Shown here: positions 4,157 through 61,866 of the stretch, piece by piece
How the letters are laid out: every line of letters starts with the position of its first letter
Numbering within the stretch: the first letter of the stretch is position 1
Assembly: GCA_963693365.1 (NCBI GenBank)
Contig: CAVNZM010000017.1
Span: 124,001-188,000 of the forward strand
Origin: Amoebidium appalachense
Lineage: Eukaryota; Protista; Ichthyosporea
Length of the DNA stretch: 64,000 nucleotides
Direction: 5' to 3'
Program-made: the position numbers and the translations under genes
Notes under the pieces: generated by a model
Told to the model about the DNA's origin: nothing
The model's input: the letters and a program-made list of their open reading frames with translations, nothing else
Databases searched by the model: none

Positions 4157-4193
4157 TGGGTTAATGTAATGCACGTGTATGTGTGTGCTTGTA

Positions 4194-4282
4194 TGTTGGA
4201 ATACGTCACCATGTATGACAGCAAGAGCCTTGAAGTATGTATGTGTCTTAGCTTGTTTGTATTCGTGTCTGCTTTCCTTCTT

Positions 4283-4335
<53 letters not shown>

Positions 4336-5049
4336 TGTTTCTGTGGGCACAGATATCTGTAGATCTGTGCACACCTGGCTCTCTTGCCTGATAAGAACTT
4401 ATTGTGTTTTATTTCTGTTTGCTCTCCTCTGTTTATCTGAGAGGTAGCGTGATTGGCTAGCCTCACTCGTTGTCTTTCCTTTATTTCAAAATGGCCTAGT
4501 TTTGTTCTCAAAAAGGATGGCTCGCCAATAGTCGCGAGCGAGTACATCTGTAGATTGTGTTGTGCATTCCTGTCTGTTAATATATGTGTGTTGTGATTGG
4601 ACAATAGATATATATGGAATTCGGTTTATTGCAAAGTGTCTTCACTTTGAGAGTGTCGACTATTAGGAAATATATGTATTTAAATAGGTTTCTTTATAGA
4701 GACGAACATAAATATATATGTGAGTTAATAGTGACTAGATGTATAATTACTTAATTTATTTAAGTAAGAGTTTCTACACTTTAGTTTAATCGGAAGTTGG
4801 AATGCGTATGCTCTGTCGGAATGTGTTTTTCTATCTTCTGATAGAACCGATTGGTTCTCCCTCTTTAGTTGTGATAAGGTGATAAGTCGCAAGTACAAAA
4901 GGAACCGAGAGCACAATAAAGAATCAGTTGTTGTTTGAATCTTTCAATGTCTCGTGAACAACTCCGATTGCCCTCTCATTAATGTGTTAGTCGTGTTTTA
5001 CATGACACCTCTGTGCACTCTGCTCCCTTAGACCCGTACAAAAACAACA
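4194..5049 (+). repeat. Copia A 5' LTR (856 bp)
   Basis: TGTTGGAATACG...AAACAACA; near-identical to 41445-42333. Confidence 0.93.
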
Positions 5050-5167
5050 GGTTAAAGGCCCATTTTCGCATGCTCTCGCAACACATACTCTCGCTGCAAT
5101 CAAAAATATTCAAATTTGAATACCGATCTGATTCCTCTCTCACGCATCATCTGACTGATTGATCACC

Positions 5168-5399
5168 ATGTCGGAGAAACCTGCGTATCTCAACCTCACC
5201 CCCTGGAAAGGGGATGACACCACGGACAAGAAGTCCGGCAAACGTCTCACTTATTATGAGTGGGAACCCGTCATCTTCCGGTACCTACGTACTACCACCG
5301 CGGCCAAGTTAGTGCCCGTCATCAAGGCCCCCGAGTGGGTCGACCCTTCCGACGAGAACGAGTGGCACGGCTATGACACTGAGGAGGCCTACACCGAGG
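5168..5399 (+). pseudogene. gag: Copia A gag, N-terminal fragment
   Basis: MSEKPAYLNLTPWKG...YYEWEPV resembles the Copia B gag start (ITMWKG...YFQWEII). It resumes in frame at 36518 once the virus and one TSD copy are removed (AYTE-ASNFLEQ). Confidence 0.85.
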
Positions 5400-5859
5400 A
5401 CTACATTAAGGGGCGCGGCACCCCACGTTAGTGACGTCACAAAGTGTGACGTCACTAACGCAGGGTGGCGCACCCCTTAGGATATGGCAGATATGCATAT
5501 GGGATATGGCGATATGCAGTATGATATGGGTGTATATTGTGATTAGGATATGGATATGGGTATGGATATGTACAGGAGCACGTGCACACACTGTGTGTGT
5601 GTGCATAAACACGTGCAGAGCACGTGGATTTAATTAAAATATTAAAGGGAAAACGTGTCATGTGTGCGCGTGCACGCACGCGCACATGCGACACGTACAC
5701 AGTTCTGAGATCAAAGGAATGCGACGGTGTGCACAAGGCGGCCAATGAGAATTCGAATTCCGAATTCCTTGTACAAGGCGGCCAATAGTAATGCGGATGC
5801 ACAAGGCGGCCAATGATAATTCGGTTCCAAAAAGCCAGTTGCCGCACAAGGCGGCCAAT
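5400..5859 (+). repeat. Left terminal inverted repeat (~460 bp)
   Basis: ACTACATTAAGGGGCGCGGC... is the reverse complement of 36054-36512 with about three differences. Confidence 0.95.
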
Positions 5860-6069
5860 GAACATTAAGATAGCACATTCCATTTCCAAGGCGGCCAATG
5901 AGCGCCCGGATCGGTCAACCTGGGTTTCCTATTGGCCGCCTTGTGTAAACAATGGTGGCGCACTTACGCACGCACAGGATCATTATTTTGCGTTCTGTTT
6001 ATTGATGTTTTTGCTGCCGGCGCTGCCTGGCAATTACATTGTGGCTAAGATCTAAGATTACTGTTCAGG

Positions 6070-9000
6070 ATGTTAGACGACAGCCAGGAAGGTTTCATAG
6101 AGGACCTGCTGCGGGCACTGGATGCCGACCCGCAGCAGGCCCTGCAAGCCAACCCGTTTCTGCAGGCCCTGCAGGGCCCACCACCCCCACCCCCACCCCT
6201 CCCCGGCCTCCCCCCTGCCCCCGCCCCCATCAACCACCCAGATGACCCCCAGATCATTGCCATGCCTGCCGAGGGCAACTGGCAGCTGCGTTCACGGGTG
6301 GATGACATGCAGGCAAGGGGGTTGGGCGTACGCGGCCACACCCTCGAGTACCAACCCCTGCGCACCATGGACGTCCCCGAGTTCCCCCAGTTCTTTGCAG
6401 CTATGCTGTTTGATGCCATCGCCCGTGCAGATGTGCAGGTGGGGGACATGATCATCGTACGCATCATCAGCTTGCACGTGCAGGCCAATGGTGTGGACAA
6501 CCAGGTGGGGGATGACGGCAACCCCAACGCCGATGTCACCAACCGTCGTGTGTTTACGGCAGGCCCCATGGACGTGTTCAACGGTGATGTGAATGCCGTG
6601 GTGCTCAAGCTGATGGAGAACATACGCCAACGCACCCAGAGTGCAGCCGAGACCTTTATGGACGGGCGATCCAGTGTGCATCTGACCGTGGTCCGGCCCA
6701 AGGACATGGTGAGGAAGGGTGCCTGCGGGTCCCTGTCCACCCTCACAGGGGTGACAGCCCAGTGGCTGCGGGAGCTGGTGGAGGCCAAGGCCGTGGTGGA
6801 TGTGACCACCCTGGTGAAGGCAGCCTGCAGCAGCAACGACCCGCAGGTGACAGGGGAGAAGGAGCTTGACCACCATCAGCTGCTTGAGATTGCCGACGGC
6901 CCCTCCTGTGCCCAGCTGTGCCTGGTGTACTGTATGGCAATGTGGGTCAGCAAGGCAGCCAACAGCAACGAGAACGGCAGCCTGCCCTCCGAGCACACTC
7001 GTAAGAACCTGGGCAATGGGGGTGACCTCATGAAGCTCAAGGACCACCACGTGCTGTGCCAACTACTGGACCCTATGGATGTGATTGGTATTGGCAACAA
7101 GGCTCTGGGTAGGTCTGTGTCTTCCGGCTGTGGGGTGTGCAACCTGCTGCAGCCACCCATCAACCCAAGGAGCAACTTCCAGGACCGTTACCTGCGCAGG
7201 CTGGCAAGGGCCACCCGCGGCTGTGGGCCAAGTACAAGCTGCCTGTGCCTGCAGAGGACGGGCTGACGGTGGATCAGTTGGGTGCAGCCGTGGATGCCCT
7301 CAACATGCAGATTGCCAGTGAGACCCAGTCAGTCACCCGTCTACGGCTGGTGGTGGTGGACCTGGACAGCAAGGGTAGGGTGGCAAGAAGGTACGGGGAC
7401 GTGAGCTCGGCCCTTCCCCCCGGCAAGCTGTGCACCATGTACCTTGGCCACTCCCAGAAGCTGGGCCACTTCACGGCCATCCCCTCCAATGTCAGCAACA
7501 CCATCGAGCGCCTGCGCAACGGCAACCACACGGGGGCCGTACGTCGGAGCCTCAGCACCTGCTTCCACTGCAACCAGACCGTGCAATCCAAGAACATGGG
7601 GGTGCACCGTTGTGTGAACCGGTGTGGGAACTGTGGATCAAAGGGGAACCACATCGACCAGGCAGATGCCTGTGTGTGGACCCCCGGGCGCCGTGTGGAG
7701 CTAGCACGGGTGGGGGAGGATGCATGGCCTTACCGTTGTGACGACTGCTGTGGCCTCTTCCCTTCGGCCAGGTGCATGGCCAACCACAGCACCAAGCTCA
7801 AGGGGGCCGGGGCCAGGGCCGACGGCCGGCAACAATCCTTCTGTGACACCGTGTTCTGGTGCCGGCTGGCCACGTGCACCCACGGCCTGCAGGGGTACAG
7901 GATGATTGGCAGTGGAGATGATGCCCTCAGGGTGTGTGTGTCGGGCAATCCTGCCGGCCGGTTCTTCTACAAGTTCAAGTACGCCAGCGTGCGCCGTCTA
8001 CGCCGGCTGCACACTGCCCAGGAGCAAGGGGGGTACGATGCAGGGGCAGATGCAGGCCCCAACGACGAGGGGGAGGACTGGGACTATGCCACGGACACGG
8101 AGGGGGAGGACTCCGACACAGGCACAGACCCCCCACCCTGCCTTGTCGAGTCGTCAGACGACGAGGGTGAGAGTGATGACGAGGATGATGCCGTCGACCT
8201 CATGCAGATGTCTGAGGGGGAGGGGGAGGGGGGTGAGGGGGGTGAGCACGGGGCCAAGAAGGACGACACGTGGACACAACACCTGTGCACCGACTACGCC
8301 TGCAAGGGCTGTGGGGGCTATATGCCCGGCAACCACACGTGCCTCATACGTAGCAAGCTCAGTGGCCAACGGCGTGTGTATATGTGCACACACACGGATG
8401 CAGACGGTGCGGTGTGTGACAGGGTGGCATGCTTCTCCAACGAGCAGGGGGAGGGGGAGGAGGGGGGAGAGTCACCTGCACGGCAGAGGGTCAGGGTGGA
8501 TGCTGCCGGCAGCAGGGTGGGTGCACACGTGTGCAAACGGCACGTGCCCGACAATGACGGCAGCGGACCCGGGGGTGTGTGGAAGCAGACCAGGCAGCCC
8601 ATCAGGGACATTGTGCTGGACTTTGAGACCATGCCGGTGCCAGCCCCCGACCACACACCCGACAACCCCCACTTCATCCACATTGTGTACCTTGCTGTGG
8701 CCATGTACGTCGAGCCGTCAGATGGCCAACCGACTGGCCCCATCATCTTCTGGCCGGAGCCCTCGGCCGACGGCAAGGACGCCTGGGACGTGTTGATGGA
8801 CGACAACCACCACGTGATTGACAAGGTGGTCAAGTGGCTGTTTGACACCCCTGCCCACGCCGGTGGCCGGGTGTTTTGCCACAACGGCAGTGGCTTCGAC
8901 TTCCACTTTGTGACCAAGAGGGTGGTGGGCAGCCAGGACTATGTGTACGTGCCCATCATGACCAACAGCAAGATCAAGTCCTGCCGTATACGTCACTACC

Positions 9001-11623
9001 TCAAGGGTGCCGGTGCAGCAGACCCCGAGCCCATACCCATGCCGGTGGATGGTGATGGCCATGGTGATGTGCAGCAGCAGGCAGCAGCAGCAGCAGCAGC
9101 AGCAGCAGGCACCGGCCACAAGAGACGGCACGGGGGGGAGAGGGGGGCGGTAGCCGTACCACGGTGGTGGAGCTGACGTTCGTGGACACCCTCAACTTCC
9201 TCACCATGTCCCTGTCAGATGCGGGCAAGGCCATGGGGTGTGAGGAGACCAAGGGCCACTTCCCCCACCATGCAGCCACCTTTGCCAACTTCAAGGCCGG
9301 CACCATTCCCTTCCCCGGGCCCGAGGACTTTGGTGCCCAGGACATGAAGCCCAGACAGCATGCTGCCTTCATGCAGTGGTGGCACGAGGAGCAGGCACGT
9401 CTGCTTGAGGGGGCCCCGGCAGCCACGTGCTACGACATTGTGCAGCAGTGTGAGGACTACTGTGTCAAGGACGTGGTGCTGCTGCAGCAGGTGGTCAAGG
9501 CCTTCATGTCCAAACTCATTGAGCTGACGGGCATCGACCCCTTCACGTGTGTGACCCTTCCAGCACTGGCCATGCACTTCTGGATCTCACAGGCCATGCC
9601 CAAGGACGTGGCTGTGCTTCGAGACCAGACCATGGGCAACGTCAACAGCAGCAAGAAGGAGCAGGAGTACATCGACTACGTCACCCACGGGCTGGGGGTG
9701 GGGCCCGACGACATTGCACGGCACGAGGCCACCGGGTACGGCCCCCACGGGCGGGCCACGGCCGATGCCAAGGCCACCCACGACGACGGCACGTGCACCT
9801 ACTACTTCTTCCACGGGTGTGTGTTCCACGGGTGCCCCGAATGCAATATGCACGAGGATCTGACGATGAGGGTGGTGAAGAGGTCGGCCAAGGAGGCCTA
9901 CGACAGCACCATGGGCCACGAGAGGTACATCCGTGCCCAGGGGCACAAGGTGCAGAGCATGTGGGAGTGCAGGTGGGACAGGCTTCGGCAGAGCCCGGAG
10001 GTGAAGGCAGCACTTGCAGCACAGGCAGCACGGAGGGAGGGCACGGGCAGGGTGGCCCCCGTGCCCACGGGCCCGGTGCAGTTCCGTGATGCCTTCTTTG
10101 GTGGCCGTACGGAGGTCATCACTCGTCACATCGAGGTCAAGGAGGAGGACTGGCCACAGGCAGGGCTCAAGTACGTCGATGTCACGTCCCTCTACCCGTA
10201 CGTGATGATTGACAAGTACATGCCGGTGGGCAAGTCACAGTGGTTCACGTCACTGCCCATCAAGCCGGAGGACCACCCCTCGGTCATCGTCACGGACCCC
10301 CAGGTGCTCAAGGAGAGGCTCGACAAGACGTGCCGTATGACCCCCGGCTCCCCCAAGGCCAGGACCAAGGGGTACTTTGGTGTTGCACGTGTGAGGGTGC
10401 TCCCCCCCAAGGACCTGTTCATCCCCGTGCTGCCTGTGCGTATGACGGGTGCCCAGGGGTACGACAAGCTGGGCTTTGTGCTGTGCAGGGCCTGCAGCAG
10501 CAAGGAGGAGGCCCAGGCCACCTGCATGGACGAGGAGGGCAACCCCCGGGTGCGTGAGCATGTGCAATGCACACACACGGACGAGGAGAGGGCACTGGTC
10601 GGCACGTGGACGACGGAGGAGCTGAAGGTGGCCGTGCGTGATGGGTACACCATCCTCGATGTGTACGATGTGGTGCATTTCAAGAAACGCACCAAGAACC
10701 TGTTTCGGAAGTACGTGCAGACCTTCCTGAAGGGAAGCTCACCAGCACCACCGTGGATCCGCCGACAACCCGCCCTCGTGCACCTGTTCAAGGAGCACTA
10801 CGGCATCACGGTGACGGCCGACGAGTTCAGCCCCAACCCTGCCCTTCGTACCATCAGCAAGCTGTTTTTGAACAGCCTCTGGGGCAAGCTGGTGCAGAGG
10901 GCAGGGCTCGACACCATCGAGTTTGTCGACGATGTCGATCGGCTGAGTCTGCTGGTGACCAACCCCAACATCTTGGTGCTGGACGTCGAGCCCATCGGCG
11001 AGCAGAGGGTGGCCATCAAGTACAGGCCCAAGAAGGAGACGGCCCCACCCCCCTCCTACGCGAACATCGCCATCGGCACGTTCGTGACGGCCCATGCACG
11101 GCTGCACCTCTATGGTGCCCTCCGGTCCCTCTCCCCCCAGCAGGTGGTGTACATGGACACGGACTCCATCGTCTACCACTACGACAGCAGGGTGCCCCAC
11201 CTCAGCCACAACATCGACTCCACCAACGGGGACTTGCTGGGCAACTGGAAGAACGAGACCACCGCCCCCATCGTCGAGTTTGTTGGAGTGGCCCCCAAGA
11301 CCTATGCCTACCGCACCCAGGACGGCAAGACCGACGTCAAGGTCAAGGGCATCACCCTCTCCCGTCGTGCAGCCGACATGGTGAACCTCCCCAGCCTCCG
11401 TATGCTGGTGCACGGGGAGATGCCGAGTGTGAGTGTCACCAACCACCGGCTGCTGCGCGAGCCCGTGCCCGGGGTGCCCCACAACTACCACCTGGCCAGC
11501 AAGGACCAGAGGAAGACACAGTCGGGGGCCTTCGACAAGAGGGGGGTGTTTGAGGCAGCCGACGGCAGTGTACGCAGCTACCCCATTGGGTGGGCAGCAC
11601 CGGAGGGGACTCTGCAGTTTTGA
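6070..11623 (+). CDS. polB: Protein-primed family B DNA polymerase (~1850 aa) in three ORF pieces (frameshifts near 7215 and 9140), with a long N-terminal extension
   Basis: ExoI IVLDFET, ExoII HNGSGFDFHF, ExoIII YCVKDV, FFGGRTE, motif A DVTSLYP, motif B KLFLNSLWGK, motif C YMDTDS, and KTY / VKGI. It also has the Polinton-type FHGC..HGC..C / MWEC insertion and N-terminal Cys/His zinc-finger clusters. Confidence 0.95.
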
Positions 11624-12131
11624 GTGGGGGAGGGGGAGGGGGAGGGAGGGGGAGGGAAGGGGAAGGGTTAGTTAGCATTTTAAGTTAAAGTATGCAATTT
11701 TTATATCAAAGTTAAATCAAAGTATCAAAGTATGCAGGGAATACGTTAGGGTAGACATGAAAATTATATGGGGTGTCTGTTAACTTAGCTTCAGAAAAAA
11801 GGAAAAATGGGGTGCAGTGTGCATGGGAAAGGGGGTCAGAAGAAAAACTTAAAGAAATTAAAGACGGTGTTTTTGGGCATACACCACGTGCACCGTATGC
11901 ATGAGGGGAAGCAGCAAATAAAATCAGAGTTTAATGCAAAACACAAACCCTTCCAATGTGGGCTTGGGCAGAAGCATGAACACCAACAACAGCACCATAC
12001 ATGCATACAAGGGGGGGAGACTTGCCAAAAAGAGCAGGCACCAGCACATATAAAAGGCACACACATGTGCAAAGATACCTCACTTTTTCCAACACGAAAA
12101 CAGGCAACACACGAAAAAATCAAAATTAAAA

Positions 12132-33688: not shown

Positions 33689-34367
33689 TGGGTATGACGG
33701 GGGCAAACCACTCTCCATTGATAAACTTTTTGTACTTGCATGCTGCTCCCCAAATATCCATGGTGTCGGTGTAGGTGTCGATGACGTGTTGGTGTAGCAT
33801 CAAATCTAACTTCCCGGCCCGTTCGAGTATGTTGACCACCCCCTGCATGAAATCGAAGCACTTGCGGGTGAAAGTGAACGTGTCGTCACGGTCTTTAAAG
33901 ATCGACTCGGCCTCGCCATAACCATCATCCATACCGGTGTCATACACAGGCACAGCGATGCCGACCGACCACACCCCGTCCTTGCAGTCCCACTTAAACA
34001 CGTCCGTATGAAAAACCTCGTTTAGAACCCCCGGTAGGGCCTCCTTCTGCGAGAATGACCATGACACAACGCCAATCTGTATGGCACTAATCAGACGCTC
34101 ACGTTCCAGAATCTCGTCCTTCTCTGCAACGTTTGCCTCGATAAGTGTCTCCTCAGCCTCTGCCCAGTTATGATAGCACTCCACCAGGTTGGGACAACGT
34201 GGGCGCTGGGCCCAATCACCCTTTGTGATGTACTGAATGTACTCGTATGCTGCGTTGAAAACAGCCACGTACTCAACACAAAAGAGGTTCAAAAATTGGT
34301 CAAACTTGGTTGGGCTTTTTGCCTTTCTCATGAAACGAGAAGTGGGTTGTCTACGACGAGGAGGCAT
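33681..34367 (-). CDS. Hypothetical viral protein, C-terminus cut by the Copia B LTR
   Basis: 228-aa ATG ORF whose last codons and stop come from the LTR start (TGTTGTAA). Confidence 0.65.
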   Translation of the reverse strand: MPPRRRQPTSRFMRKAKSPTKFDQFLNLFCVEYVAVFNAAYEYIQYITKGDWAQRPRCPNLVECYHNWAEAEETLIEANVAEKDEILERERLISAIQIGVVSWSFSQKEALPGVLNEVFHTDVFKWDCKDGVWSVGIAVPVYDTGMDDGYGEAESIFKDRDDTFTFTRKCFDFMQGVVNILERAGKLDLMLHQHVIDTYTDTMDIWGAACKYKKFINGEWFAPVIPML

Positions 34368-34389
34368 GATTGCTTTCTGACCCTAAGTC

Positions 34390-34390
<1 letters not shown>

Positions 34391-34454
<64 letters not shown>

Positions 34455-34556
34455 TTTGTCTAAGTAACAAAAAACTTTAAAAGACTTTTTTCTACGAAAA
34501 GAGATGATTGAAAAGGATTTTCAAGTTTTTTCACAAAACTAACGAAAGGAAACGAG

Positions 34557-34597
<41 letters not shown>

Positions 34598-34680
34598 TTT
34601 GTCTACTACGGTAACAAAAACTTTAAAAGACTTTTTTCTACGAAAAGAGATGATTGAAAAGGATTTTCAAGTTTTTTTTG
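34391..34680. repeat. Two direct copies of (GT)n plus an ~80-bp AT-rich unit inside the virus
   Basis: GAAAGATTTGTCTA...AAAACTTTAAAAGACTTTTTTCTACGAAAAGAGATGATTGAAAAGGATTTTCAAG occurs twice, each time after a (GT)n run. Confidence 0.85.
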
Positions 34681-34920
34681 AGAAAGACAGGGAAAGAGAA
34701 GAAAAAACGACATGCTGGGCATTCCTGGAGATAAATTCGCAAAATTTCATCGGCTCATACTTGCGCAAGTCTTTGACACTCCCTCTCATTGCGCCACAAG
34801 TCAAGTCGGTCACGTAGCTCACAGTGTTCGTTTTTCCCCAAAAACACAAGTTTTTTTGACCGTTTATTTCGTGGCAATCACCCGCAGACAAATATGTTCT
34901 CAATATACAGTCGTGTGTCA

Positions 34921-35835
34921 TTACATTCTGAGCATTTTGGCATCGTCATTACCGGGCATGGGCGTGCCTGCACGCTTAGCCTGCCCCAAGTCTACCTCAC
35001 CCCCCTCCCCCTCGCCCCCCTCACCACCAACCAACTCCATCAGGCCATCTAAGTCAAACACCTGAACCTTGCGGGCAACGAGCTTGGTACGCACAGTGTT
35101 GTTCTTCTTGTTGTAGATGACGCTGGTGGCAGCTGCAGACACCCAGGCAGTCACCTCACGGCACTTGGCACGTTGGGAGTTCATAAACTCCACAAACTCG
35201 TCGATGGAGGCAGCGTTGTTGCCCAGCTTGAAGAGGCAGGGGTTGCGGCCAAGGGGGTTGGGGAGCTCCAACGTCACGTTGAAGTAGGTGCCACCCAGTG
35301 CCTCCACCATGTCCTCCTTGCCGACGGGGTCGGCACCCAGCACATCGTACAGGCTGGGGGTGTGCCTGGACCACAGGTTGCTGCTGGTCTTGACAGGCAC
35401 GGTGTCCACGTCCACCCCCTTGAGCATCTCGTGGTCCTTGTGCATCCACAACACGTCCCTGGCCATGCTGCACACGTAGGGCCACAGGTCAACGGCGTAG
35501 GCCACCTCAAAGGGCTCAGGGCGGCGTTGCGACTTGACCCTAATGGTGGGCTTGGCATCCCAGGCAACCGTGCTGGGGACCAACTCGATGAGCATCTGCC
35601 CGTTGATGTTGATGTTGGGCAGGTTGTACAGCTGCACGGCCAACACGTCGTTCATCACCCAGGGTGCGCCCATGGTGGCCTTGCCCACACCGTTGAGGAA
35701 CACCTCCTTGTACTGCACCATCTTGGGCCCCTCACTGTTGTTGGTGTTTTCTTTGCCACTGCTTGCCGCGGCGATGCTGGTCCTTTTGACGGTGGACAGA
35801 CCAGTCGTTTGACGCAGCAGGGTTGGCTTGACCAT
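34921..35835 (-). CDS. Hypothetical viral protein (304 aa), possibly an OB-fold ssDNA-binding protein
   Basis: Strong GC3 codon bias, beta-rich C-terminal strands and an acidic/Gly tail. It reads inward from the right TIR. Confidence 0.6.
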   Translation of the reverse strand: MVKPTLLRQTTGLSTVKRTSIAAASSGKENTNNSEGPKMVQYKEVFLNGVGKATMGAPWVMNDVLAVQLYNLPNININGQMLIELVPSTVAWDAKPTIRVKSQRRPEPFEVAYAVDLWPYVCSMARDVLWMHKDHEMLKGVDVDTVPVKTSSNLWSRHTPSLYDVLGADPVGKEDMVEALGGTYFNVTLELPNPLGRNPCLFKLGNNAASIDEFVEFMNSQRAKCREVTAWVSAAATSVIYNKKNNTVRTKLVARKVQVFDLDGLMELVGGEGGEGEGGEVDLGQAKRAGTPMPGNDDAKMLRM

Positions 35836-36053
35836 TTTGCTGTTGTTTGGGGGGTGTGGTGAACGTGACTGTGGTGTGCACCTCAACTGTGTACGTATGG
35901 CTCATGTTTGCTTGGTGTGATGTTGCCTGTGTGCGGATGCTTATGTACACAGCGGCGACATGCTGGGTGCGCTTGTGGCCAATGAGGACCGAAATCCTTA
36001 ATCTCTGTGTCCTTATTGGCCGCCTAAACCAAAATGTGCCAACCTGAACTCCG

Positions 36054-36512
36054 ATTGGCCGCCTTGTGCGGCAACTGGCTTTTGGAACTGAATTATCATT
36101 GGCCGCCTTGTGCATCCGCATTACTATTGGCCGCCTTGTACAAGGAATTCGGAATTCGAATTCTCATTGGCCGCCTTGTGCACACCGTCGCATTCCTTTG
36201 ATCTCAGAACCGTGTACGTGTCGCATGTGCGCGTGCGTGCACGCGCACACATGACACGTTTTCCCTTTAATATTTTAATTAAATCCACGTGCTCTGCACG
36301 TGTTTATGCACACACACACAGTGTGTGCACGTGCTCCTGTACATATCCATACCCATATCCATATCCTAATCACAATATACACCCATATCATACTGCATAT
36401 CGCCATATCCCATATGCATATCTGCCATATCCTAAGGGGTGCGCCACCCTGCGTTAGTGACGTCACACTTTGTGACGTCACTAACGTGGGGTGCCGCGCC
36501 CCTTAATGTAGT
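36054..36512 (-). repeat. Right terminal inverted repeat
   Basis: Reverse complement of 5400-5859, ending ...CCCCTTAATGTAGT. Confidence 0.95.
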
Positions 36513-36517
36513 CGAGG

Positions 36518-39500
36518 CTTCCAACTTCCTTGAACAGATGTTTACTCAACTCGTCTCCAATGATGAGCTGTATAACTCTGGTCAAATCCACGATGATGTG
36601 TCACCTGCCCAAGCTTTCCACAACCTCCGTATGACCTATGCGGCTGAACGTGAAGATCGTGCTCGTCAAATCCTCCTCGACTACCATGAGCTTGAACTCA
36701 AAGACTTCAAGACCGTCACGGCCTAGTACCTCACCATGGCACGCCGTCTGTGCACTACCCTGCACATCCTCGAAGAGCCCATTCCTCACAAGACTATGGT
36801 TGATAACTTCTTCATCCACCTCAAGAAGAACCGTAAGTTAGTTTGTACCGACATCCAGGCCATGATTGCCGACTACTTCCGTCGTACCATCAACTACGAG
36901 ACCTACAACCGTCTAATCAGTGACATCCGAGCTGCAGAGATCCGTGAAGGTCTCATCGACTCTGGGTCCGGGTCCTCCTCCACCGTCCGAACAGCACGTG
37001 CCCTGCAAAGCCGTGTCCTCACCAAGGACGACCTCAGACACCGGATCCCCCGACGTGACAGCTCCGTCTCCCGTCACCCCCGCGGTCGTCCCACCGATCG
37101 ATCCCCCTCAGTTGACCGTGATTACTCACGGTCCCGTTCCCCCGGCTATCGTTCCCGGTCACCCTACCCCCCACGTAAAGGGGGTAACCGTCATTCCCAG
37201 CCACCCCGAGCCAAGACCACTGGCTCCCTCGACTGTGCCTACTGTCACGAAGACCATCATGTCACACAGTGTGACAAACCTGGCTGCTCAATTGCCCGTC
37301 GTCACCGTGCCAACACCAAGTCTGGAAAAGAGGTGCATTTTGCCCTCGTGTCCACCACGGCCTCCCTACCCATGGACCCCTGCTGGGACTCGGCTTCAAA
37401 CGTCCACGTGTGCCCAGTAAAGGAGTACTTCTCTACTCTTGAGCCATGCCCCCCGACTGACGTCCACGGCCTCGGCATCGTCACTGCACATCACCGTGGT
37501 GTCATCAACCTGGCCGTCACCTACAACGGAGTAACATCAGTACTGAGCCTCAACACCCTCTATGTACCCGACTCCCCAGCCTTCCTGATTTCACCCTCAA
37601 TGGCCTCCAAGTCGGGTCTCCTTGCCCACCTCGATGATGAGGATGCATTCCCATCATACCTCTACACTCGTGGTGGCAACATCGTGTGTTCCCTCACAGG
37701 CACAGATGGACTGTACTTCATCACTGACTATGAGATACGTCCCTCCATCCCTCGGACCGTCACTGCTCTGGTAGCCAACGTCAAGGTCAACAATGATCCT
37801 CAGCTCTGGCACCACCGTCTCGGCCATCGTGCCCTGTCCACCCTCACCAAGATGGTGAGAGGTGACCTCGTGACAGGCCTCCCCTCATCCCTCTCAGTGG
37901 CTGACACCACTGACTGCTTCGGTTGTGTCTCCGGCAACTTAGACCACCAAGGCCCCATTCTCCGGCACCAGAACCCAGTGCCCCTTCCCCGGTGCCAAGT
38001 GGCACATGGACTTCTTCGAGCCTCCCTGTGCCTCCTATGGTGGCTACAAGGTGGCCCTCGTGTGTACCTGTGATGCCTCCGGCTACACCATCGTGTACCT
38101 CCTCCGTGATCGATCCGAAACTCTCGAATACGTCAAGGCCCTGGTTGAGACTACTGACAAGCAACCCGACAAGGTGGTGACCCACTTCCGTTCAGACTCT
38201 GGGTCCGAGTTCACCTCCCATGCTATGGAGCAGTACTGCCAGTCCAAGGGCATCATTCAGGAATTTGCTCCGGTTGACTGCCCCCAACTCAACGGCTTCG
38301 TTGAACGTAAGATGAGGGATCTGCAGGAGATCGTTCGGTGCTTCCTTCATCAGGACAAGGCCGACTCCCTTTCCCCCAAGCTGTGGGGAGCTGCTCTCAA
38401 GCATGCTGCCTACATCATCAACGTGACCCCGGCCAGAGCTGCCAATGGCCGTACACCGTTTGAAATTTTCTACGGTGTCAAGCCTGACATCTCCCACCTG
38501 CACGTGTTCGGCTGCCCAGCCTATGTACACGTCCCTGCATCCAAACGAGACAAGTTGGCCTCTACCGTCAAACTCGGCACCTACGTGGGCTGGGATATCA
38601 CCAACAAAGCCCACAAGATCATGAATCTACGTGGCAACACGGTCAACCTCTACCGCGATGTCGTCTTCGACGAATCACAATTCACCACGGCATCCAATCA
38701 GATTTCTGTGCAGGCCACCAATCAGACGACCTCAATCGATCCATCCCTGCATTCCGGAAATTCCAATTCCGATGACGATGAAATTCCGTCGGTGATTATC
38801 CGTCGTTCCCCCCGTCGTGTACCTGCCCCCGTGGCTCCACCCACCCCCCCCCCCCCCACCGGCCAGCAACCCCTGCTGCCGGCCCCTGCCGTCAATGACC
38901 ACGTACCTGGTCATCTCACCCCGGTTCGTCCTGGGTCTCCGGAGTTCCACTCGGCCCCGTCCAGCCCCGTGTTATCCAACTCCCCCCTCAACACGGCACC
39001 CATCCCTGGCTTCCAGGCCCCCATCCCCGACCACCGAGTGTCTGTCCCAGACACCCCCCCGGCCCCTGAGCCCCTCCGTACCGTCCCCCGTCGTTCCTCC
39101 CGTCTCTCCTCTCGGCCTGCCATGGCTATGGTGAGCATCTCCCGACCCAGCCTTGATGTGTCTCAGCTGCCCCGGTCAATTCAGAAGCTGTGCTCTGGCA
39201 CCAAGGGTGATGAAGTGGTGACTGCCCTCACTGCCGAGTACAAGGCTTTCATCGACAAGGACATCTTCGACGTAGTTGAGCCCCCCTCCGATGCCAACAT
39301 CATCCGATTCAAGTGGATTGTCACGGAGAAGGTCCTCAACTCTGCTGGTGACACCAAGATCAAGGGTCGTGGTGTGGCCAAGGGTTTCACCCAAGTCTAC
39401 GGTGTTGACTACGGTGAAAACTCTTCCCCCGTCGTCATGTCCTCCTCCGTCCGTGCCTTACTTGCCCTCGGTGTGCAACAGGACCACGAGATCCATCAAC

Positions 39501-40728
39501 TCGACATCAGCACGGCCTTCCTCAACAGCCCCCCAGACGAGACTTTGTACATGGAGCAACCTCCTGGTTTTATCCTCCCTGGCAATGAACACAAAGTCTG
39601 GAAACTCAAGAAGGCCATCTACGGACTCAAGCAGGCATCCCTGGCATGGTACGAGTTCTTCAACTCCATTCTCATTGCCCACGGCCTCACCCGTCTCCGT
39701 TCCGATCCGTGTGTCTACTTCCGTCAGTTCCCCAACGGACACATCATCCGTTCGGGAAACTACGTTGATGATGCCATCATCACCTGCACACGGAACTCCA
39801 CCATCATGCAGGGGCTTGTTCGTCACATCACGAAGTCTGCCGAGTGCAAGGTCGGTCTGCCAGACATCTTCCTCGGCACCCAACTGCTGTACACCCGTGA
39901 CTCCCTCAAGCTGCTGCAGTCCTCCTACATCAAGGACATCATCACCGACTTCAACCTGGTCGATGCCAAGCCTAAGGCCACCCCTATTCCCGTGGGCACC
40001 ATCATCAACGAGTCCTCCCTCTCATCCCTGCCCACCACCGTCCCCTACCGTGAACTCCTCGGCCGTCTGCTGTGGGTTGCTCGGTGCTCCCGGCCTGACA
40101 TCTCGTATGCCATTGGCTACCTCGGTCGATTCAGCTCCAAGCCCACCAAGACTGCCTGGGAGCTTCTCCTCCGTGTCGTTCGTTACCTGCTCGGCACCAT
40201 CAACCTCGGCCTCTACTACAAGAAGAAGGCCCCCAACAGCAAGGTGCCCATCCTTGAGTGCTACTTGGATTCTGACTTTGCTGGTTGCCCCACCACCCGT
40301 CGTTCCACGTCTGGGTACGTCATCCTCCTCGAAGGCTCCCCCGTCACCTACCACTCCAAGCTGCAGACGACTCGGATCACTGCAACTTCCACGTGTGAGG
40401 CCGAGCTCCTGGCCCTCAATGCTGCCGTGCAAGATGTTGTCTGGCACCGTGATCTACTAAAGGAGCTGGGCTACCCCATGACCGAGCCCACCCCGACGGC
40501 GTGTACTGTGACAATCAGTCCACCATTGCTCTGGTCCACTCCAACACCATCAAGCACCGGACCAAGCACATTGCCGTTCGTTACTTCAACACCAAGGACT
40601 ACATCAACAGTGGGGACGTCACTGTCACCTACATCGACACCAAGAAGAACCTGGCCGACATCTTCACCAAGCCTCTGGCTGGTCCGGCCCACGACACACA
40701 CCGTGCCAACCTCAGTCTCCGTGACTGA
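36518..40728 (+). pseudogene. Copia A gag-pol remainder (stop at 36724, frameshifts near 37940 and 40500)
   Basis: CAYCHEDHHVTQC, WDSAS, WHHRLGH, SDSGSEF..NGFVER, QLDISTAFLN, YVDD, YLDSDFA and YCDNQS..KHI..ADIFTK. Clearly homologous to Copia B. Confidence 0.93.
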
Positions 40729-41444
40729 CCCATGCACTGGTGTTCATCATCGAGTGGTTTCTGAGTAGGTTGGGGCCCTGGACAGCAGTTGACACCCCTA
40801 CAGTGATCAAGATGCCTCCCAACGAAAGTCTACTACTCCTCATCGTTTCTCTTCATCAGTGGGGACTCAGTCTTCCATCGTCATATGTGTGCATCTTCAG
40901 TGGGATTATTCTCCCCCATCCGTCGTTTATTTATATTCATATCCCACCATATATATTGGTTTTCTTCTATATTCGACTTTATATATATGTCGAACTGGGA
41001 TGGCGTCCCAGTATAAATAATTATCTATAGCCATGACGTGCTGGTTGACTGCCAGTCTAAACCTAGTCCACGGGATGCACCTTCCCCGTGTCTTAACTGG
41101 TTGACCACCAGTCTATAAATCAGTCCACAAGATGTTCATGCCTTGTGTTTACCTGGGTGGTCCCCAGTACAAACCATTAGCCACCAACACGTCACACATA
41201 CACTAGTGTTTCCTCTATATATATATATCGACGATAACCACCATGATTTATTGTTCCGAGTCTTCAGAGGCAACCGTCGTTGTGTGCCTCTTCAGTTTTG
41301 ATTCTCTCCTTCCCACCTCAAGGATCTTCGGTTTGCATCCTCGAGTGGGGAAACTTGAGTGTGACGGCCCCTCCTGTGTTTGGACCTCATCTACCGTCAC
41401 ATCAACAGACACGAGAACACAAACTTCAACCCCTTGAGTGGGGA

Positions 41445-41537
41445 TGTTGGAATACGTCACCATGTATGACAGCAAGAGCCTTGAAGTATGTATGTGTCTT
41501 AGCTTGTTTGTATTCGTGTCTGCTTTCCTTCTTTTTT

Positions 41538-41587
<50 letters not shown>

Positions 41588-42333
41588 CCCCCCCCCCCCC
41601 CCCCGTATCTCTCTCTCCCTTGTTTCTGTGGGCACAGATATCTGTAGATCTGTGCACACCTGGCTCTCTTGCCTGATAAGAACTTATTGTATTTTATTTC
41701 TGTTTGCTCTCCTCTGTTTATCTGAGAGGTAGCGTGATTGGCTAGCCTCACTCGTTGTCTTTCCTTTATTTCAAAATGGCTTAGTTTTGTTCTCAAAAGG
41801 ATGGCTCGCCAATAGTCGCGAGCGAGTACATCTGTAGATTGTGTTGTGCATTCCTGTCTGTTAATATATGTGTGTTGTGATTGGACAATAGATATATATG
41901 GAATTCGGTTTATTGCAAAGTGTCTTCACTTTGAGAGTGTCGACTATTAGGAAATATATGTATTTAAATAAGTTTCTTTATAGAGACGAACATAAATATA
42001 TATGTGAGTTAATAGTGACTAGATGTATAATTACTTAATTTATTTAAGTAAGAGTTTCTACACTTTAGTTTAATCGGAAGTTGGAATGCGTATGCTCTGT
42101 CGGAATGTGTTTTTCTATCTTCTGATAGAACCGATTGGTTCTCCCTCTTTAGTTGTGATAAGGTGATAAGTCGCAAGTACAAAAGGAACCGAGAGCACAA
42201 TAAAGAATCAGTTGTTGTTTGAATCTTTCAATGTCTCGTGAACAACTCCGATTGCCCTCTCATTAATGTGTTAGTCGTGTTTTACATGACACCTCTGTGC
42301 ACTCTGCTCCCTTAGACCCGTACAAAAACAACA
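41445..42333 (+). repeat. Copia A 3' LTR
   Basis: Direct repeat of 4194-5049, preceded by a PPT. Confidence 0.93.
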
Positions 42334-44291: not shown

Positions 44292-46028
44292 AAAAAAACC
44301 CCGCAACCCCCCGTCCCTCCCCCCCTCCTCTTTCCCCTCACCCCACCTGTCCCTTCAAGAAGTTCCAGCCCGGTGACTTCCCCAACTCGCACGGTCAACT
44401 CCCCCCTTGCCCCCCCTTGCCCATCCCCTCCCTTTCCCCTCCCAACTTGAACCCCTCGTCCCATCCCCCTGCCTGTAGTACCTGCCTGCCGACCTTTCCC
44501 TCACCTTGTCCCCACCTTGTTGAGTTGACGTCTGACCTGTTAATAACACCCCAATATATGCTAATCTTACATTATAATGTGTAGTTACTACCACGGGTTC
44601 TTGTGCAAGTTCACCGAGACTCCCTTCAGTAACTTAATCCTTTTTACTCTCCCAGATCTACGTGCACCATGCCGGAGGCGGATTCGACGCACGCAAAAGG
44701 AGGCCCGACCTCAAGCAGGCCTCCAATGACCTGAGTCACACCATCTTCAGGGGCATCGAGTTTCTGCCATCATGCTTGGTGATTGAGCTGCTTGAGAAGG
44801 AGATGGAGACTAGCCAGCTGTCGGAGCTGAAGAAGCTCCCACAAAAACATTTCCAGCAGAGGGTAAGTCCCATCCCCCATCCCCCCCCCATCCCCCCCTC
44901 CCCCCCCCCCCCCCCACTGGGGAGGTGCCCTGTCCCATGCCCCCTTCAACCCCCCCTCCCCCTCCCCCCCCTCGGGTCCTCTCTCTCCCTTGTTTCTGTG
45001 GGCACAGATATCTGTAGATCTGTGCACACCTGGCTCTCTTGCCTGATAAGAACTTATTGTATTTTATTTCTGTTTGCTCTCCTCTGTTTATCTGAGAGGT
45101 AGCGTGATTGGCTAGCCTCACTCGTTGTCTTTCCTTTATTTCAAAATGGCTTAGTTTTGTTCTCAAAAGGATGGCTCGCCAATAGTCGCGAGCGAGTACA
45201 TCTGTAGATTGTGTTGTGCATTCCTGTCTGTTAATATATGTGTGTTGTGATTGGACAATAGATATATATGGAATTCGGTTTATTGCAAAGTGTCTTCACT
45301 TTGAGAGTGTCGACTATTAGGAAATATATGTATTTAAATAAGTTTCTTTATAGAGACGAACATAAATATATATGTGAGTTAATAGTGACTAGATGTATAA
45401 TTACTTAATTTATTTAAGTAAGAGTTTCTACACTTTAGTTTAATCGGAAGTTGGAATGCGTATGCTCTGTCGGAATGTGTTTTTCTATCTTCTGATAGAA
45501 CCGATTGGTTCTCCCTCTTTAGTTGTGATAAGGTGATAAGTCGCAAGTACAAAAGGAACCGAGAGCACAATAAAGAATCAGTTGTTGTTTGAAATCTTTC
45601 AATGTCTCGTGAACAACTCCGATTGCCCTCTCATTAATGTGTTAGTCGTGTTTTACATGACACCTCTGTGCACTCTGCTCTCTTAGACCCGTACAAAACA
45701 ACACCTCCCCCCCCCCCCCCCCCCCCCCCCCGTCGGAGCTACCACCTACTGGCCAGTACTTCCCCAACAACCCCCATCGGCCAACATCTTTACATATAAC
45801 TATAGAAACACCCCCACCCCCACCCCCACACACACACGTTTTCATGGAAGATTTTCCGGACGGGTGCTTTTTTTCCAGCAAAGTTAACCTGTAGGCTTAC
45901 ACCCGTTGCTGCAGGCTTTTTTGGACCTGCAACTTTCCCTGTGGAACAGACTCAAGCCAACAATCCGACAGGCAGCCGAGAAAGCAGGTGAACCGATTGC
46001 CGAAGACGGAAAGCCATCATGGGAAAAG
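43963..46028 (+). CDS. Three in-phase exons of an unidentified spliced gene (43963-44134, 44656-44862, 45915-46028)
   Basis: AG/GT boundaries and an open joined frame ([10 protein letters not shown].../IYVHHAGGG.../AFLDLQL...). No start or stop was identified. Confidence 0.5.
44981..45703 (+). repeat. 5'-truncated Copia A LTR copy in an intron
   Basis: Matches the Copia A LTR from the CT tract to ...AAACAACA. Confidence 0.9.
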
Positions 46029-48908: not shown

Positions 48909-49769
48909 TGACATATACTAATCCGTCTCAGCAGATTAGCCTAAGTCTACGATCGAGATCGGGGGGGGGGGGGGGGGGGGGGGGGGTGGCCCGGGTCCAC
49001 AGATCATCAAGATCAAGTCCGGGGCCTCAAGATAGCTGTACAGCTGCGTGCATCTTGCCTCTGCCGGCGCAGGGCATTGGACCACGTCAGCCGGGGCAGC
49101 CGACCAATAGAATTCCAATTAGTGTGTAGGATAGATCGTAGGAGGACTTAGGAATGTGATTGTTCGGGCAGAAGCCCTTTTGTAAGTATTGGCAAGGTTT
49201 GATAGAGTATGTTGCCAAACGAATTTATATATTTAGATGTAGAGGAAAGGGGGGAGGGAGGGGGGGAGGATAGTATGAAATGTAGATTTAGACTCTGCGG
49301 TGCCACTAGGGGGGGAGGGTGAGGGGTGAGACATGGATAAATATATTAGTTGAGTAGATCGACTTAGCTCGTGCAGGCGCACGATAAAAGTAGATCGGAA
49401 TGTTTGGAATGTGGCATCGTAGGGGGCCAGGTGATGATGATCTTTGAGGGCACGGCCTTGATGGCCTCAGTTGTAACTTAGTCTCATTCCGTACGGACCT
49501 AAGTTTGCCCGTCGGAGCCTGGTCTGAATAAACTTTACCGTTTTTCCGTACACGTTCGTTCCTTTTCGTGTGTATACACTTAGTAGAGTGCCGCGTCTCT
49601 AGTACATATACATTAGGATACGACAAGCTACACCTTTCTTTTAGTGCGGTTTTTCGCGCTAGGGTAACGCGGTGACAGTTCCTTCTGGGCTGTTGCTACA
49701 CCTCAAACACACAGAAAAAAAAAAAAAAAAAAAAAAAAAACATAAACACAACCACCCGAACACCACACA

Positions 49770-51113: not shown

Positions 51114-51676
51114 GTTCCGGGGGAGGGGGAAGCTGGGGTCACTGAGGGAGGGGGGGACAGTATCGGTCCCCCCCAGGTTGCAGAGAACCTTCACCCTCCC
51201 CCACCCCAGGTTAAGCTTCCCTTTGCCCCCTCACCGCCCCGATACGTGTGGGAGCCGGGCATCGTCGTGGGTCCTCAAGACAGCGTCGAGGTGGTATGGC
51301 ATGAATGTTTGTGGGGTGACTCTACCAAAGGTATGAATGGTGTGAATGTTTTGTGGTTGGGGGAGGTTCCCCAGCCACAAGTGGATGGTCTCAGTGTTTC
51401 TTGTCCCAACCCGGTGTTTATTCTAACCACACCGGAGGGGGTTTCTGTGCCATTGTTTCCGGGAGGGGGGGGGACACACACGAGTAAAGGGGGAAGGGGG
51501 GGGAAGGCACAGACACGTAGAAACACACCACCACAACAACATCCGACGGTTGCAGACACACCTACACCCACACCCACACCCACACATACACCAAACACAC
51601 ACACACCACCCACCCACACATCACACACACACACTCCACCACCGCCCACACCACATCGACACACCCCACCCCACCC

Positions 51677-56124: not shown

Positions 56125-56334
56125 GTATCAAGCTTATGGTGTAGATTAATTTATTATTTTTCTTCGTAATTTATTTAATTTAATTTTTTTTTAGGAGACT
56201 GATTAGTCTATGTCTTTTTAGGGGGTGTTAGATGTAATGTGACTGAGGTGGGACTCAGCTTTTCCGGGGGCCGGGGGGGGAGTTGACATATACTAATCCG
56301 TCTCAGCAGATTAGCCTAAGTCTACGATCGAGAT

Positions 56335-56372
<38 letters not shown>

Positions 56373-60926: not shown

Positions 60927-60928
<2 letters not shown>

Positions 60929-61034
60929 TTGGAATACGTCACCATGTATGACAGCAAGAGCCTTGAAGTATGTATGTATCTTAGCTTGTTTGTATTCGTG
61001 TCTGCTTTCCTTCTTTGTGCTCTTTCTATTTTCT

Positions 61035-61119
<85 letters not shown>

Positions 61120-61862: not shown

Positions 61863-61866
<4 letters not shown>
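60927..61866 (+). mobile_element. Solo LTR of the Copia A family within a (CA)n tract
   Basis: Complete TGTTGG...ACAACA with CACAC on both sides and no internal region. Confidence 0.92.

What the first reader, a model, noticed from the sequence alone, without database searches (positions are those of the whole stretch)
5400..36512. Endogenous Polinton-like virus with a mosaic gene set: Polinton-type pPolB, PLV-type capsid module, NCLDV-type late transcription factor, three fibres and a 7-TM protein
Seen: a bounded element (TIRs, TSD) with ~22 tightly packed, apparently intronless ORFs. Candidate early genes (polB, putative SSB) read inward from each TIR and the structural genes are central. 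Established: canonical Polintons carry pPolB, RVE integrase, adenain protease, ATPase, MCP and penton, with 6-bp TSDs and usually AG termini. VLTF3 is a core Nucleocytoviricota gene. Inference: the ACTAC ends, 5-bp TSD, lack of a recognisable adenain, VLTF3 and rich virion-surface cargo suggest a distinct, possibly undescribed lineage of integrating virus that can probably still form virions.
Basis: partly seen in the sequence, partly recalled or inferred. Interest (0 to 1): 0.9.

Follow-up and report, generated by a model that had tools for sequence, protein, structure and literature searches.

The report
Broken integrated virus with giant-virus gene
A 31-kb DNA virus is integrated in a jumping gene of what is likely a single-celled relative of animals; it pairs a Polinton-type polymerase and a giant-virus-type transcription factor with a capsid from an unnamed virus family, but this copy is broken and its family was likely already reported in 2024.

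Summary
The element is real. It has 433-bp inverted repeats (ACTAC…GTAGT), a 5-bp target duplication, pPolB, VLTF3, an A32 ATPase and a capsid predicted to fold as a double jelly-roll (Z 28 to PBCV-1).

(1) 6.8 kb of it (26917-33688) is a nested Copia retrotransposon with no target duplication. Viral DNA is lost there, so the virus proper is 24.3 kb and gene absences (adenain, Dam) cannot be judged.
(2) A probable integrase starts at 26675 and is cut at the Copia, and pPolB lies in three frames. This copy would not make virions alone.
(3) The gene set matches the ~30-kb VLTF3-carrying 'adintoviruses' of Amoebidium (Sarre 2024). CGC/GCG depletion and ichthyosporean capsid relatives point to such a host.

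What I add: the capsid and ATPase do not group with the three Polinton-type controls. The capsid falls in an unnamed polinton-like family, in a clade with Sphaeroforma, Abeoforma and Pirum sequences. So 'adintovirus' likely describes only the polymerase and integrase. A link to the host-less 'Zephyrviruses' is possible but untested.

The parts
5395..5399 (.). Left target-site duplication CGAGG (right copy 36513-36517)
   Evidence: empty site read in run X6
5400..5832 (+). Left terminal inverted repeat, begins ACTAC. The TIR and the next 100 bp hold 6 GGCGGCCAAT (CCAAT-box-like), 2 TGACGTCA (CRE-like) and 3 CACGTG (E-box-like) motifs; factor names are recalled
6070..7266 (+). pPolB piece 1: probable terminal protein (not tested) plus vOTU Cys block
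   Evidence: Cys block: 0 of 500 shuffles reach the score; whole-ORF hhalign not significant, E 0.31
7113..9176 (+). pPolB piece 2 (other frame): vOTU His/zinc-knuckle region and start of the exonuclease
   Evidence: hhalign probability 93%, E 2.6e-7; His block 2 of 500 shuffles
9068..11623 (+). pPolB piece 3 (third frame): exonuclease and polymerase domains; three small indels against other copies at 10733-10768
   Evidence: PF03175; phi29 polymerase E 0.001; best locus L057, E 1.4e-90
12132..13019 (+). VLTF3-like late transcription factor, open frame
   Evidence: PF04947 E 8.4e-12; 26% identical to the VLTF3 of L034
13647..15642 (-). Low-complexity Pro-rich ORFs with a 90-bp x4.9 repeat and a Lys/Arg-rich C-terminus; likely a DNA-condensing core protein (inference); indels against other copies at 13735 and 14636
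   Evidence: no family hit
15584..16449 (-). Two small ORFs of unknown function; indel near 16405
16498..18246 (-). Major capsid protein, double jelly-roll, 582 aa, open frame
   Evidence: AF2 pLDDT 77.7, pTM 0.78; Z 28.4, rmsd 2.8 over 355 residues to PBCV-1 8h2i; 409 representatives at E<=0.001
18259..19002 (-). A32-like genome-packaging ATPase, open frame
   Evidence: PF04665; 12 homologues
19031..20320 (.). Three small ORFs: 19031-19267 minus (Cys-rich), 19362-19985 plus, 20027-20320 plus
   Evidence: no family hits
20603..21715 (-). Probable penton (minor capsid protein)
   Evidence: weak: hhalign E 0.015 over 146 columns to presumed pentons of related loci; fold not tested
21742..23223 (+). 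Fibre-like protein 1 with 84- and 126-bp coiled-coil-like repeats
   Evidence: only weak hits (gp26 tail needle E 0.26)
23242..25253 (+). Fibre-like protein 2, same N-terminal motif; frame changes near 25062
25255..26061 (-). Cys-rich protein with 7 hydrophobic segments, no family
26060..26650 (+). Short third protein with the fibre N-terminal motif; broken near 26309-26399
26675..26916 (+). Probable N-terminus of an RVE integrase, broken near 26736 and cut off at the Copia
   Evidence: 18 of 2000 and 2 of 1000 shuffles reach its scores against 5 Polinton-type integrase N-termini, but it is not top among window frames; other copies continue here with an ADL motif
26917..33688 (-). Nested Ty1/Copia retrotransposon; LTRs 26917-27842 and 32763-33688, 99.9% identical; no target duplication; marks a deletion of viral DNA
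33689..34367 (-). Viral ORF of unknown function whose stop codon lies in the Copia LTR, so it is truncated
34921..35835 (-).
   Evidence: GC3 0.82; Atlas gives only unnamed clusters at 0.91-0.92 with low recognition
36080..36512 (-). Right terminal inverted repeat, ends GTAGT
4193..42333 (+). Host Ty1/Copia element (LTRs 4193-5049 and 41444-42333) whose gag gene is interrupted by the virus

Best explanation
This is one damaged copy of a multi-copy integrating DNA virus, likely from an ichthyosporean protist such as Amoebidium, that joins a Polinton-type protein-primed polymerase and a probable integrase to a double-jelly-roll capsid of an unnamed polinton-like family and a VLTF3 gene. How the family likely works: (1) An RVE integrase inserts the linear genome at its ACTAC ends and leaves a 5-bp duplication (duplication and empty site shown; enzyme inferred). 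(2) Host CG methylation keeps it silent (shown for the Amoebidium elements in PMC11244446; inferred here). (3) On de-repression, host RNA polymerase II would fire the CCAAT/CRE/E-box-rich TIR promoters and make pPolB from the left end and the 304-aa ORF from the right (inferred). (4) The vOTU domain would free the terminal protein, and pPolB would copy the genome from the TIR ends (hypothesis of PMC11161782, applied here). (5) VLTF3 would switch on the central structural genes, six of which have an AAAAT(T/G) motif 29-41 nt upstream (motif shown, role inferred). (6) The A32 ATPase would package DNA into icosahedral capsids with penton and fibres (inferred). This copy would need a sister copy in trans: a nested Copia has cut the integrase and removed viral DNA, and pPolB lies in three frames.
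For: Boundaries, TSD, empty site and a second flank. Hallmark genes. Deletion: no TSD around the inner Copia, and contigs of X1, X6 and X2 continue past 26915 with sequence unlike 33689 onward. Virus without the Copia is 24,341 bp against 29-30 kb published. Host: 4 of 25 MCP hits looked up carry an organism name and all 4 are ichthyosporeans; three of them fall with the window in a 10-sequence clade, support 0.972. CGC/GCG is depleted in the virus (252 observed / 598 expected) and the retroelements (18/91, 8/89, 25/92), the context Amoebidium methylates most. Capsid not like the Polinton controls: the family profile gives 5-9 bits to three MCPs from Polinton-type pPolB loci and 71 and 120 bits to two held-out family members; the ATPases of those loci form a separate clade, 0.924; 20 of 52 ATPase-retrieved loci carry this MCP family and 0 of 52 a pPolB hit. 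Late motif in 6 of 17 upstream windows against 2% background; motif on either strand 8 of 17, reached by 0 of 5000 shuffles.
Against: The host is inferred: no genome was available, and CGC/GCG is not depleted in the repeat-rich spacers (68/47, 122/85). No Dam methylase was found here, although the published elements have one; I ascribe this to the deletion, untested. The integrase call is weak: no Pfam hit, BLASTP E 12, two-sequence profiles missed it, no homologue found. Only three Polinton-type controls were available, and two of them also miss PF21738, so the Pfam blank does not by itself exclude Polintoviricetes. The 52 comparison loci were chosen by similarity to this ATPase and many are partial contigs. 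The promoter motif was picked by eye after seeing the sequences. Many single-base indels may be assembly errors rather than mutations.
Confidence: 0.75

Rival explanations
1. It is a true adintovirus/Polinton (Polintoviricetes), as labelled in 2024, with a fast-evolving capsid and a VLTF3 picked up from a co-resident giant virus.
For: pPolB is of the vOTU-PF03175 type; probable RVE integrase; TIRs and TSD. Sarre 2024 found adintovirus polymerases closest and suggested VLTF3 came from a giant virus. An adintovirus capsid protein ranks 10th in BFVD. Adenain may lie in the deleted part.
Against: MCP and ATPase separate from three Polinton-type controls. 0 of 67 and 0 of 15 MCP relatives hit PF21738, while control L056 does at E 3e-41. 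Starrett 2021 report that adintovirus virion proteins appear restricted to animals, with weak hits in a few close relatives. Bellas 2026 hold the capsid module to be the better marker.
Confidence: 0.13
2. Lifestyle rival, compatible with the same taxonomy: the virus is a virophage-like satellite. Its structural genes are transcribed only during giant-virus infection, and VLTF3 plugs into or competes with the helper's late machinery.
For: Amoebidium holds Medusavirus-related insertions that encode VLTF3. Demethylation woke 144 adintovirus genes but no capsid genes and gave no particles. Several PLVs are helper-dependent. The A-rich late motif resembles giant-virus promoters (recalled).
Against: The element has its own polymerase, VLTF3 and host-type TIR promoters, which fits autonomous nuclear replication. 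Silent capsids could equally reflect broken copies like this one.
Confidence: 0.35
3. This copy is intact and virion-competent, and the breaks are assembly errors.
For: Near-identical TIRs and LTRs indicate a young insertion. Many breaks are small indels where contigs of 2-4 runs show the other form, as polishing errors in repeats would give. MCP, ATPase, penton candidate and VLTF3 are open.
Against: A 6.8-kb two-LTR Copia with flanking loss of viral DNA is not a polishing error. The same TSD at both ends argues against a chimera of two virus copies.
Confidence: 0.05
4. It is a Mriyavirus or other dwarf member of Nucleocytoviricota.
For: VLTF3; best structural matches are NCLDV capsids, Z 28-22 against 20 for Sputnik and 19 for mavirus; the top Atlas cluster is mostly labelled Nucleocytoviricota, phylum known for 5 members.
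Against: Replication is by pPolB from TIRs, not HUH rolling circle. No HUH, VLTF2 or Capsid_NCLDV hit. No PLV or Polinton capsid appears among the 50 entries shown, so the ranking cannot discriminate.
Confidence: 0.05

Closest known systems
Amoebidium appalachense 'adintoviruses' (Sarre et al. 2024, PMC11244446)
   Same: About 30 kb with terminal repeats, VLTF3, major and minor capsid, PolB, many copies, some degenerate; host signature fits. Very likely the same family.
   Different: No Dam methylase in this copy (DNA is deleted). The paper classed them by polymerase; here the capsid and ATPase do not group with Polinton-type controls. Fibre-like, 7-TM and integrase genes are not mentioned in the passages I saw (figures not visible).
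Adintoviruses / Maverick-Polintons, class Polintoviricetes (PMC8502044, PMC11161782)
   Same: vOTU-bearing PF03175 pPolB, probable RVE integrase, A32 ATPase, DJR capsid, TIRs with TSD.
   Different: Capsid family differs; no adenain in the DNA present; VLTF3; ACTAC ends and 5-bp TSD (the usual AG ends and 6-bp TSD are recalled, from no call).
'Zephyrvirus' cluster of polinton-like viruses (bioRxiv 10.64898/2026.06.19.733378)
   Same: Described with mixed replicases including pPolB, VLTF3 in about 30% of VC123/VC126, and lipases. Loci related here by capsid or ATPase carry an SF1 helicase (L035), a primase and a weak lipase hit (L036) and VLTF3 (L034).
   Different: The preprint found no endogenous member and no host. 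I could not run its HMMs, so membership is untested.
Unplaced Sphaeroforma arctica MCP genes (Bellas and Sommaruga 2021, PMC7805220)
   Same: SARC_11267 is the closest named relative: 29% identity over 478 columns, E 7e-51.
   Different: That paper only notes novel MCP genes in S. arctica; no whole element is described in the passage seen, and I did not check that it means this same gene.
Mriyaviruses
   Same: VLTF3; size just below their 35-45 kb.
   Different: pPolB and TIRs instead of HUH; probable integrase present, whereas they lack integration genes.

Membership tests
Polintoviricetes (adintovirus/Maverick) | Protein-primed PolB with TP-vOTU-EXO-PALM layout | tested here: met
   PF03175; exonuclease region; vOTU Cys and His blocks. 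The TP domain itself was not tested and the gene is split.
Polintoviricetes (adintovirus/Maverick) | RVE integrase | tested here: inconclusive
   Only about 80 N-terminal codons remain; shuffle P about 0.002-0.009 but not top among window frames; ADL motif in other copies' continuation
Polintoviricetes (adintovirus/Maverick) | Adenain/vUlp1 maturation protease | tested here: inconclusive
   No Peptidase_C5 hit and no hit with a two-sequence profile, but viral DNA is deleted at the Copia
Polintoviricetes (adintovirus/Maverick) | Maverick group capsid (PF21738-type MCP) | tested here: not met
   Window MCP and 0 of 82 relatives hit PF21738, control L056 does; family profile gives L056 5 bits
Polintoviricetes (Gossevirus, group 2, VC35 branches) | MCP and ATPase group with these branches | tested here: inconclusive
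   Two pPolB+RVE loci (L057, L059) score 5-9 bits and their ATPases branch apart, but they are unlabelled and only two
Polinton-like viruses (broad sense) | Double jelly-roll MCP | tested here: met
Polinton-like viruses (broad sense) | A32-like packaging ATPase | tested here: met
Polinton-like viruses (broad sense) | [quoted passage not shown] | tested here: inconclusive
Zephyrvirus cluster | Best score to the Zephyr4/Zephyr5 MCP profiles | not testable with these tools
Mriyaviruses | HUH endonuclease, Mriya48, VLTF2 | tested here: inconclusive
   No Pfam hit for HUH or VLTF2; no Mriya48 model on hand; part of the genome is deleted
Mriyaviruses | No integration gene | tested here: inconclusive
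   TIRs, a 5-bp TSD and a probable integrase remnant argue against it
Amoebidium 'adintoviruses' (Sarre 2024) | VLTF3 + MCP + PolB between terminal repeats, about 30 kb | tested here: met
   24.3 kb remains after a deletion
Amoebidium 'adintoviruses' (Sarre 2024) | Dam methyltransferase | tested here: inconclusive
   No methyltransferase hit; may lie in the deleted part
Amoebidium 'adintoviruses' (Sarre 2024) | Sequence identity to the published insertions; host is Amoebidium | not testable with these tools
   No genome held; host inferred

The most novel reading that the evidence does not exclude
The Amoebidium 'adintoviruses' are not adintoviruses. They are the endogenous, host-assigned arm of a large aquatic capsid family, possibly the NCLDV-related Zephyrviruses that have no known host. 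An Ichthyosporea-wide lineage of this family took on a Polinton polymerase and integrase and runs a two-stage programme: host-type promoters in the TIRs, then VLTF3 on an AAAAT motif. That would be a 30-kb, culturable model of giant-virus late transcription without a viral RNA polymerase.
Probability: 0.3. Interest if true: 0.68.

Novelty: new variant of a known kind. Interest (0 to 1): 0.4.

Why it matters
The elements themselves are probably already in print, and module swapping is common in these viruses, so the mosaic alone is not surprising. Two points would matter. First, the placement: an ichthyosporean capsid clade inside a family otherwise seen here only in metagenome records would give that family a culturable host and correct a published label. 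Second, if the host is Amoebidium, it can be demethylated in culture and also carries giant-virus insertions. One could then test directly what VLTF3 does without a viral RNA polymerase, and whether such viruses are autonomous or helper-dependent.

Tried and rejected
No host genome was held. The first AF2 model, with a 2-sequence alignment, failed (pLDDT 27). PDB sequence searches gave nothing useful for the MCP, penton candidate (113) or 7-TM protein (115). IMG/VR scans with the MCP, the single ATPase (34), pPolB (56) and an integrase motif (62) found no loci. The homologue search with the integrase fragment found nothing. PHROGs and NCBIfam added nothing beyond polymerase and ATPase. No RNA holder was listed, and X22 (RNA is a guess) holds only short divergent pieces: no evidence on expression either way. 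Contig depths (about 350 for near-identical X1 contigs) are not copy numbers and were not used as such. Foldseek and VIA rankings cannot separate virus classes (6-13% identity; no PLV or Polinton capsid among the PDB rows shown). The codon-usage score was trained with one piece out of frame (about a tenth of the codons), so I cite only its GC3 values. The first His block tried was the wrong one (46 of 500 shuffles); the second is the catalytic one. Own-scan look-ups found nothing on this genome or sequence. PMC10120064 has no mention of ichthyosporeans or VLTF. No complex prediction was run (an MCP trimer exceeds the size limit). The rve hits inside the element belong to the Copia, not the virus.

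Full report
BOUNDARIES. The longest inverted repeat in the window pairs 5399-5832 with 36080-36513. The sequence shows ends ACTAC…GTAGT at 5400 and 36512, flanked by CGAGG on both sides. The arms are identical for 301 bp, next differ at 5701 and 5823, and align to about 505 bp at 96%. The element interrupts the gag frame of a Copia whose LTRs lie at 4193-5049 and 41444-42333. Contigs of run X6 go from 5399 straight into the sequence after the right TSD, which is the empty site. A contig of X22 has a different flank at exactly 5400. Twenty of 24 listed runs, from 3 named studies, hold the central stretch or part of it, and laid contigs fall into several identity classes. This is a real, multi-copy, integrating element.

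WHAT THE FINDING DID NOT MENTION. A second Copia lies inside, on the minus strand at 26917-33688, with 926-bp LTRs 99.9% alike and gag-pol domains. Its flanks (CAAAT left, TGGGT right) are not a duplication. Contigs of X1, X6 and X2 run on past 26915 with sequence unlike what follows 33688, and the ORFs on both sides are cut. Viral DNA was therefore lost here, most simply by recombination between two Copia insertions (inference). What remains of the virus is 24,341 bp.

The ORF cut on the left (26675-26916) resembles the N-terminus of Polinton-type integrases. 18 of 2000 shuffles reach its profile score and 2 of 1000 its summed alignment score against five references, but low-complexity frames of the window outscore it. 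Other tests missed it. Other copies continue with an ADL motif (read by eye) where references have QIDL or QADL. I call it a probable integrase.

pPolB lies in three frames. This copy also differs from other copies' contigs by small indels at 10733-10768, 13735, 14636, 16405, 25062, 26309-26399 and 26736; these may be mutations or assembly errors.

GENES. pPolB, VLTF3 and the A32 ATPase pass Pfam cut-offs. The middle pPolB piece aligns to Polinton-type polymerases (probability 93%). vOTU Cys and His blocks are detected at 0 and 2 of 500 shuffles. The 582-aa ORF had one homologue in the word-based search (54%) and 409 in the profile search. With a 138-sequence alignment it folds at pLDDT 77.7 and matches PBCV-1 capsid proteins at Z 28.4, rmsd 2.8 over 355 residues; Sputnik scores 20.2, mavirus 19.3 and adenovirus hexons about 16. 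The penton is only weakly supported. Three ORFs share an N-terminal motif; only the first has clear coiled-coil-like repeats. The 7-TM ORF has seven hydrophobic segments and viral-like GC3 but no family. Of 175 stop-to-stop frames of 70 aa or more, 148 were scanned and 13 were covered; 14 (mostly antisense to pPolB or in the TIRs) were not scanned. No adenain, methyltransferase or HUH hit appeared.

HOST AND PRIOR REPORT. Of 25 MCP hits looked up, 4 carry an organism name: Sphaeroforma arctica, Abeoforma whisleri (two clusters) and Pirum gemmata, all listed as ichthyosporeans in PMC11244446. In a FastTree tree of 72 MCPs (60 best-ranked rows of the alignment plus 12 locus proteins), the window joins three of them in a 10-sequence clade with support 0.972; the second Abeoforma fragment was not in the tree. 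CGC/GCG is depleted in the virus (252/598) and the three retroelements (18/91, 8/89, 25/92) but not in the repeat-rich spacers. Amoebidium methylates that context at about 70%, while the other ichthyosporeans tested have negligible 5mC.

Sarre et al. 2024 describe 44 Amoebidium 'adintoviruses' of about 30 kb with VLTF3, Dam, mCP, MCP and PolB, classed by polymerase. After 5-azacytidine 144 of their genes woke, but no capsid transcripts or particles were seen. I put about 85% on this being the same family.

PLACEMENT. None of 67 representative hits (67 of 149 scanned) and none of 15 further relatives hits a capsid Pfam family. A Maverick-type control, L056, hits PF21738 at E 3e-41, but two other pPolB+RVE controls do not. 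The family profile gives all three controls 5-9 bits against 71 and 120 bits for held-out family members, and their ATPases branch apart (0.924; 53 sequences). Of 52 loci retrieved with the ATPase, 20 carry this MCP family, 0 a pPolB hit and 1 a VLTF3 (L034). Others carry an SF1 helicase (L035) or a primase and a weak lipase hit (L036). That mixture resembles the Zephyrvirus description, for which no endogenous member or host is known, but I could not run the preprint's profiles. Five paper searches (open-licence library only) showed no paper that places the Amoebidium elements by capsid.

MECHANISM. The TIRs and the adjacent 100 bp hold repeated GGCGGCCAAT (6 left, 5 right), TGACGTCA (2 each) and CACGTG (3 each) motifs. 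These look like host polymerase II elements, and the last two contain CpG and so could be methylation-sensitive (recalled). AAAAT(T/G) stands 29-41 nt before 6 of 17 starts: MCP, 19362, 20027, both long fibres and 26060. It occurs in 2% of background windows and not in the tested windows of pPolB, VLTF3 or the right-end ORFs (motif chosen after inspection). I infer an early phase from the TIRs, protein-primed replication with vOTU release of the terminal protein (hypothesis of PMC11161782), a VLTF3-driven late phase, and ATPase packaging. I favour autonomy in the nucleus over helper dependence, about 65 to 35.

PAPERS SEEN. PMC11244446: passages, supplement passages and part 2, no figures. bioRxiv 2026.06.19.733378: parts 1-4 of 5 and passages; its supplements (the HMMs) are closed and bear on the placement. 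PMC8502044: passages and section 3.4. PMC7805220: passages. PMC10120064: term search, no hits. bioRxiv 2026.10.13.758929: part 1 and passages. PMC11161782: passages.

VERDICT. A real but damaged endogenous virus of a family probably reported in 2024. The gain here is the capsid-based evidence that it is an ichthyosporean polinton-like lineage rather than an adintovirus. Interest 0.4.

Noticed in passing
window 4193-42333: Three-level nesting: Copia, then virus, then a second Copia family (68-73% DNA identity between the two Copia pol regions). The inner LTRs are 99.9% identical, so the inner insertion is young.
   Followed up: yes
window 48909-57017: A Ty3/Gypsy element with 736-bp LTRs (96.7% identical) and split gag, protease and RT-RNaseH ORFs.
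   Followed up: partly
window 44954-45704 and 60927-61866: Two further LTR copies (one partial) of the outer Copia family, apparently solo LTRs.
   Followed up: no
window 27843-32762, 36513-41440, 50000-55600: Retroelement coding DNA is very poor in CGC/GCG (9-27% of expected), more so than the virus (42%), while other CG contexts are not depleted. This may be a sequence signature of trinucleotide-specific methylation and a rough clock of residence in the host.
   Followed up: partly
window 34391-34677: A 146-bp duplication with (TG)n tracts lies between the two right-end viral ORFs; host-like microsatellite inside the virus.
   Followed up: no
window 22388-25839: Contigs of X14 and X2 skip parts of the fibre-like and 7-TM genes while the capsid block is conserved, suggesting a variable surface module among copies.
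   Followed up: no
L034:2641-10588: An IMG/VR contig with VLTF3, an MCP of the same family, a penton candidate and an ATPase 39% identical to the window's: a free-living-looking counterpart with the same gene combination.
   Followed up: partly
window 19031-19267: A small Cys-rich ORF (CxxC-type motifs) just upstream of the ATPase, possibly zinc-binding.
   Followed up: no
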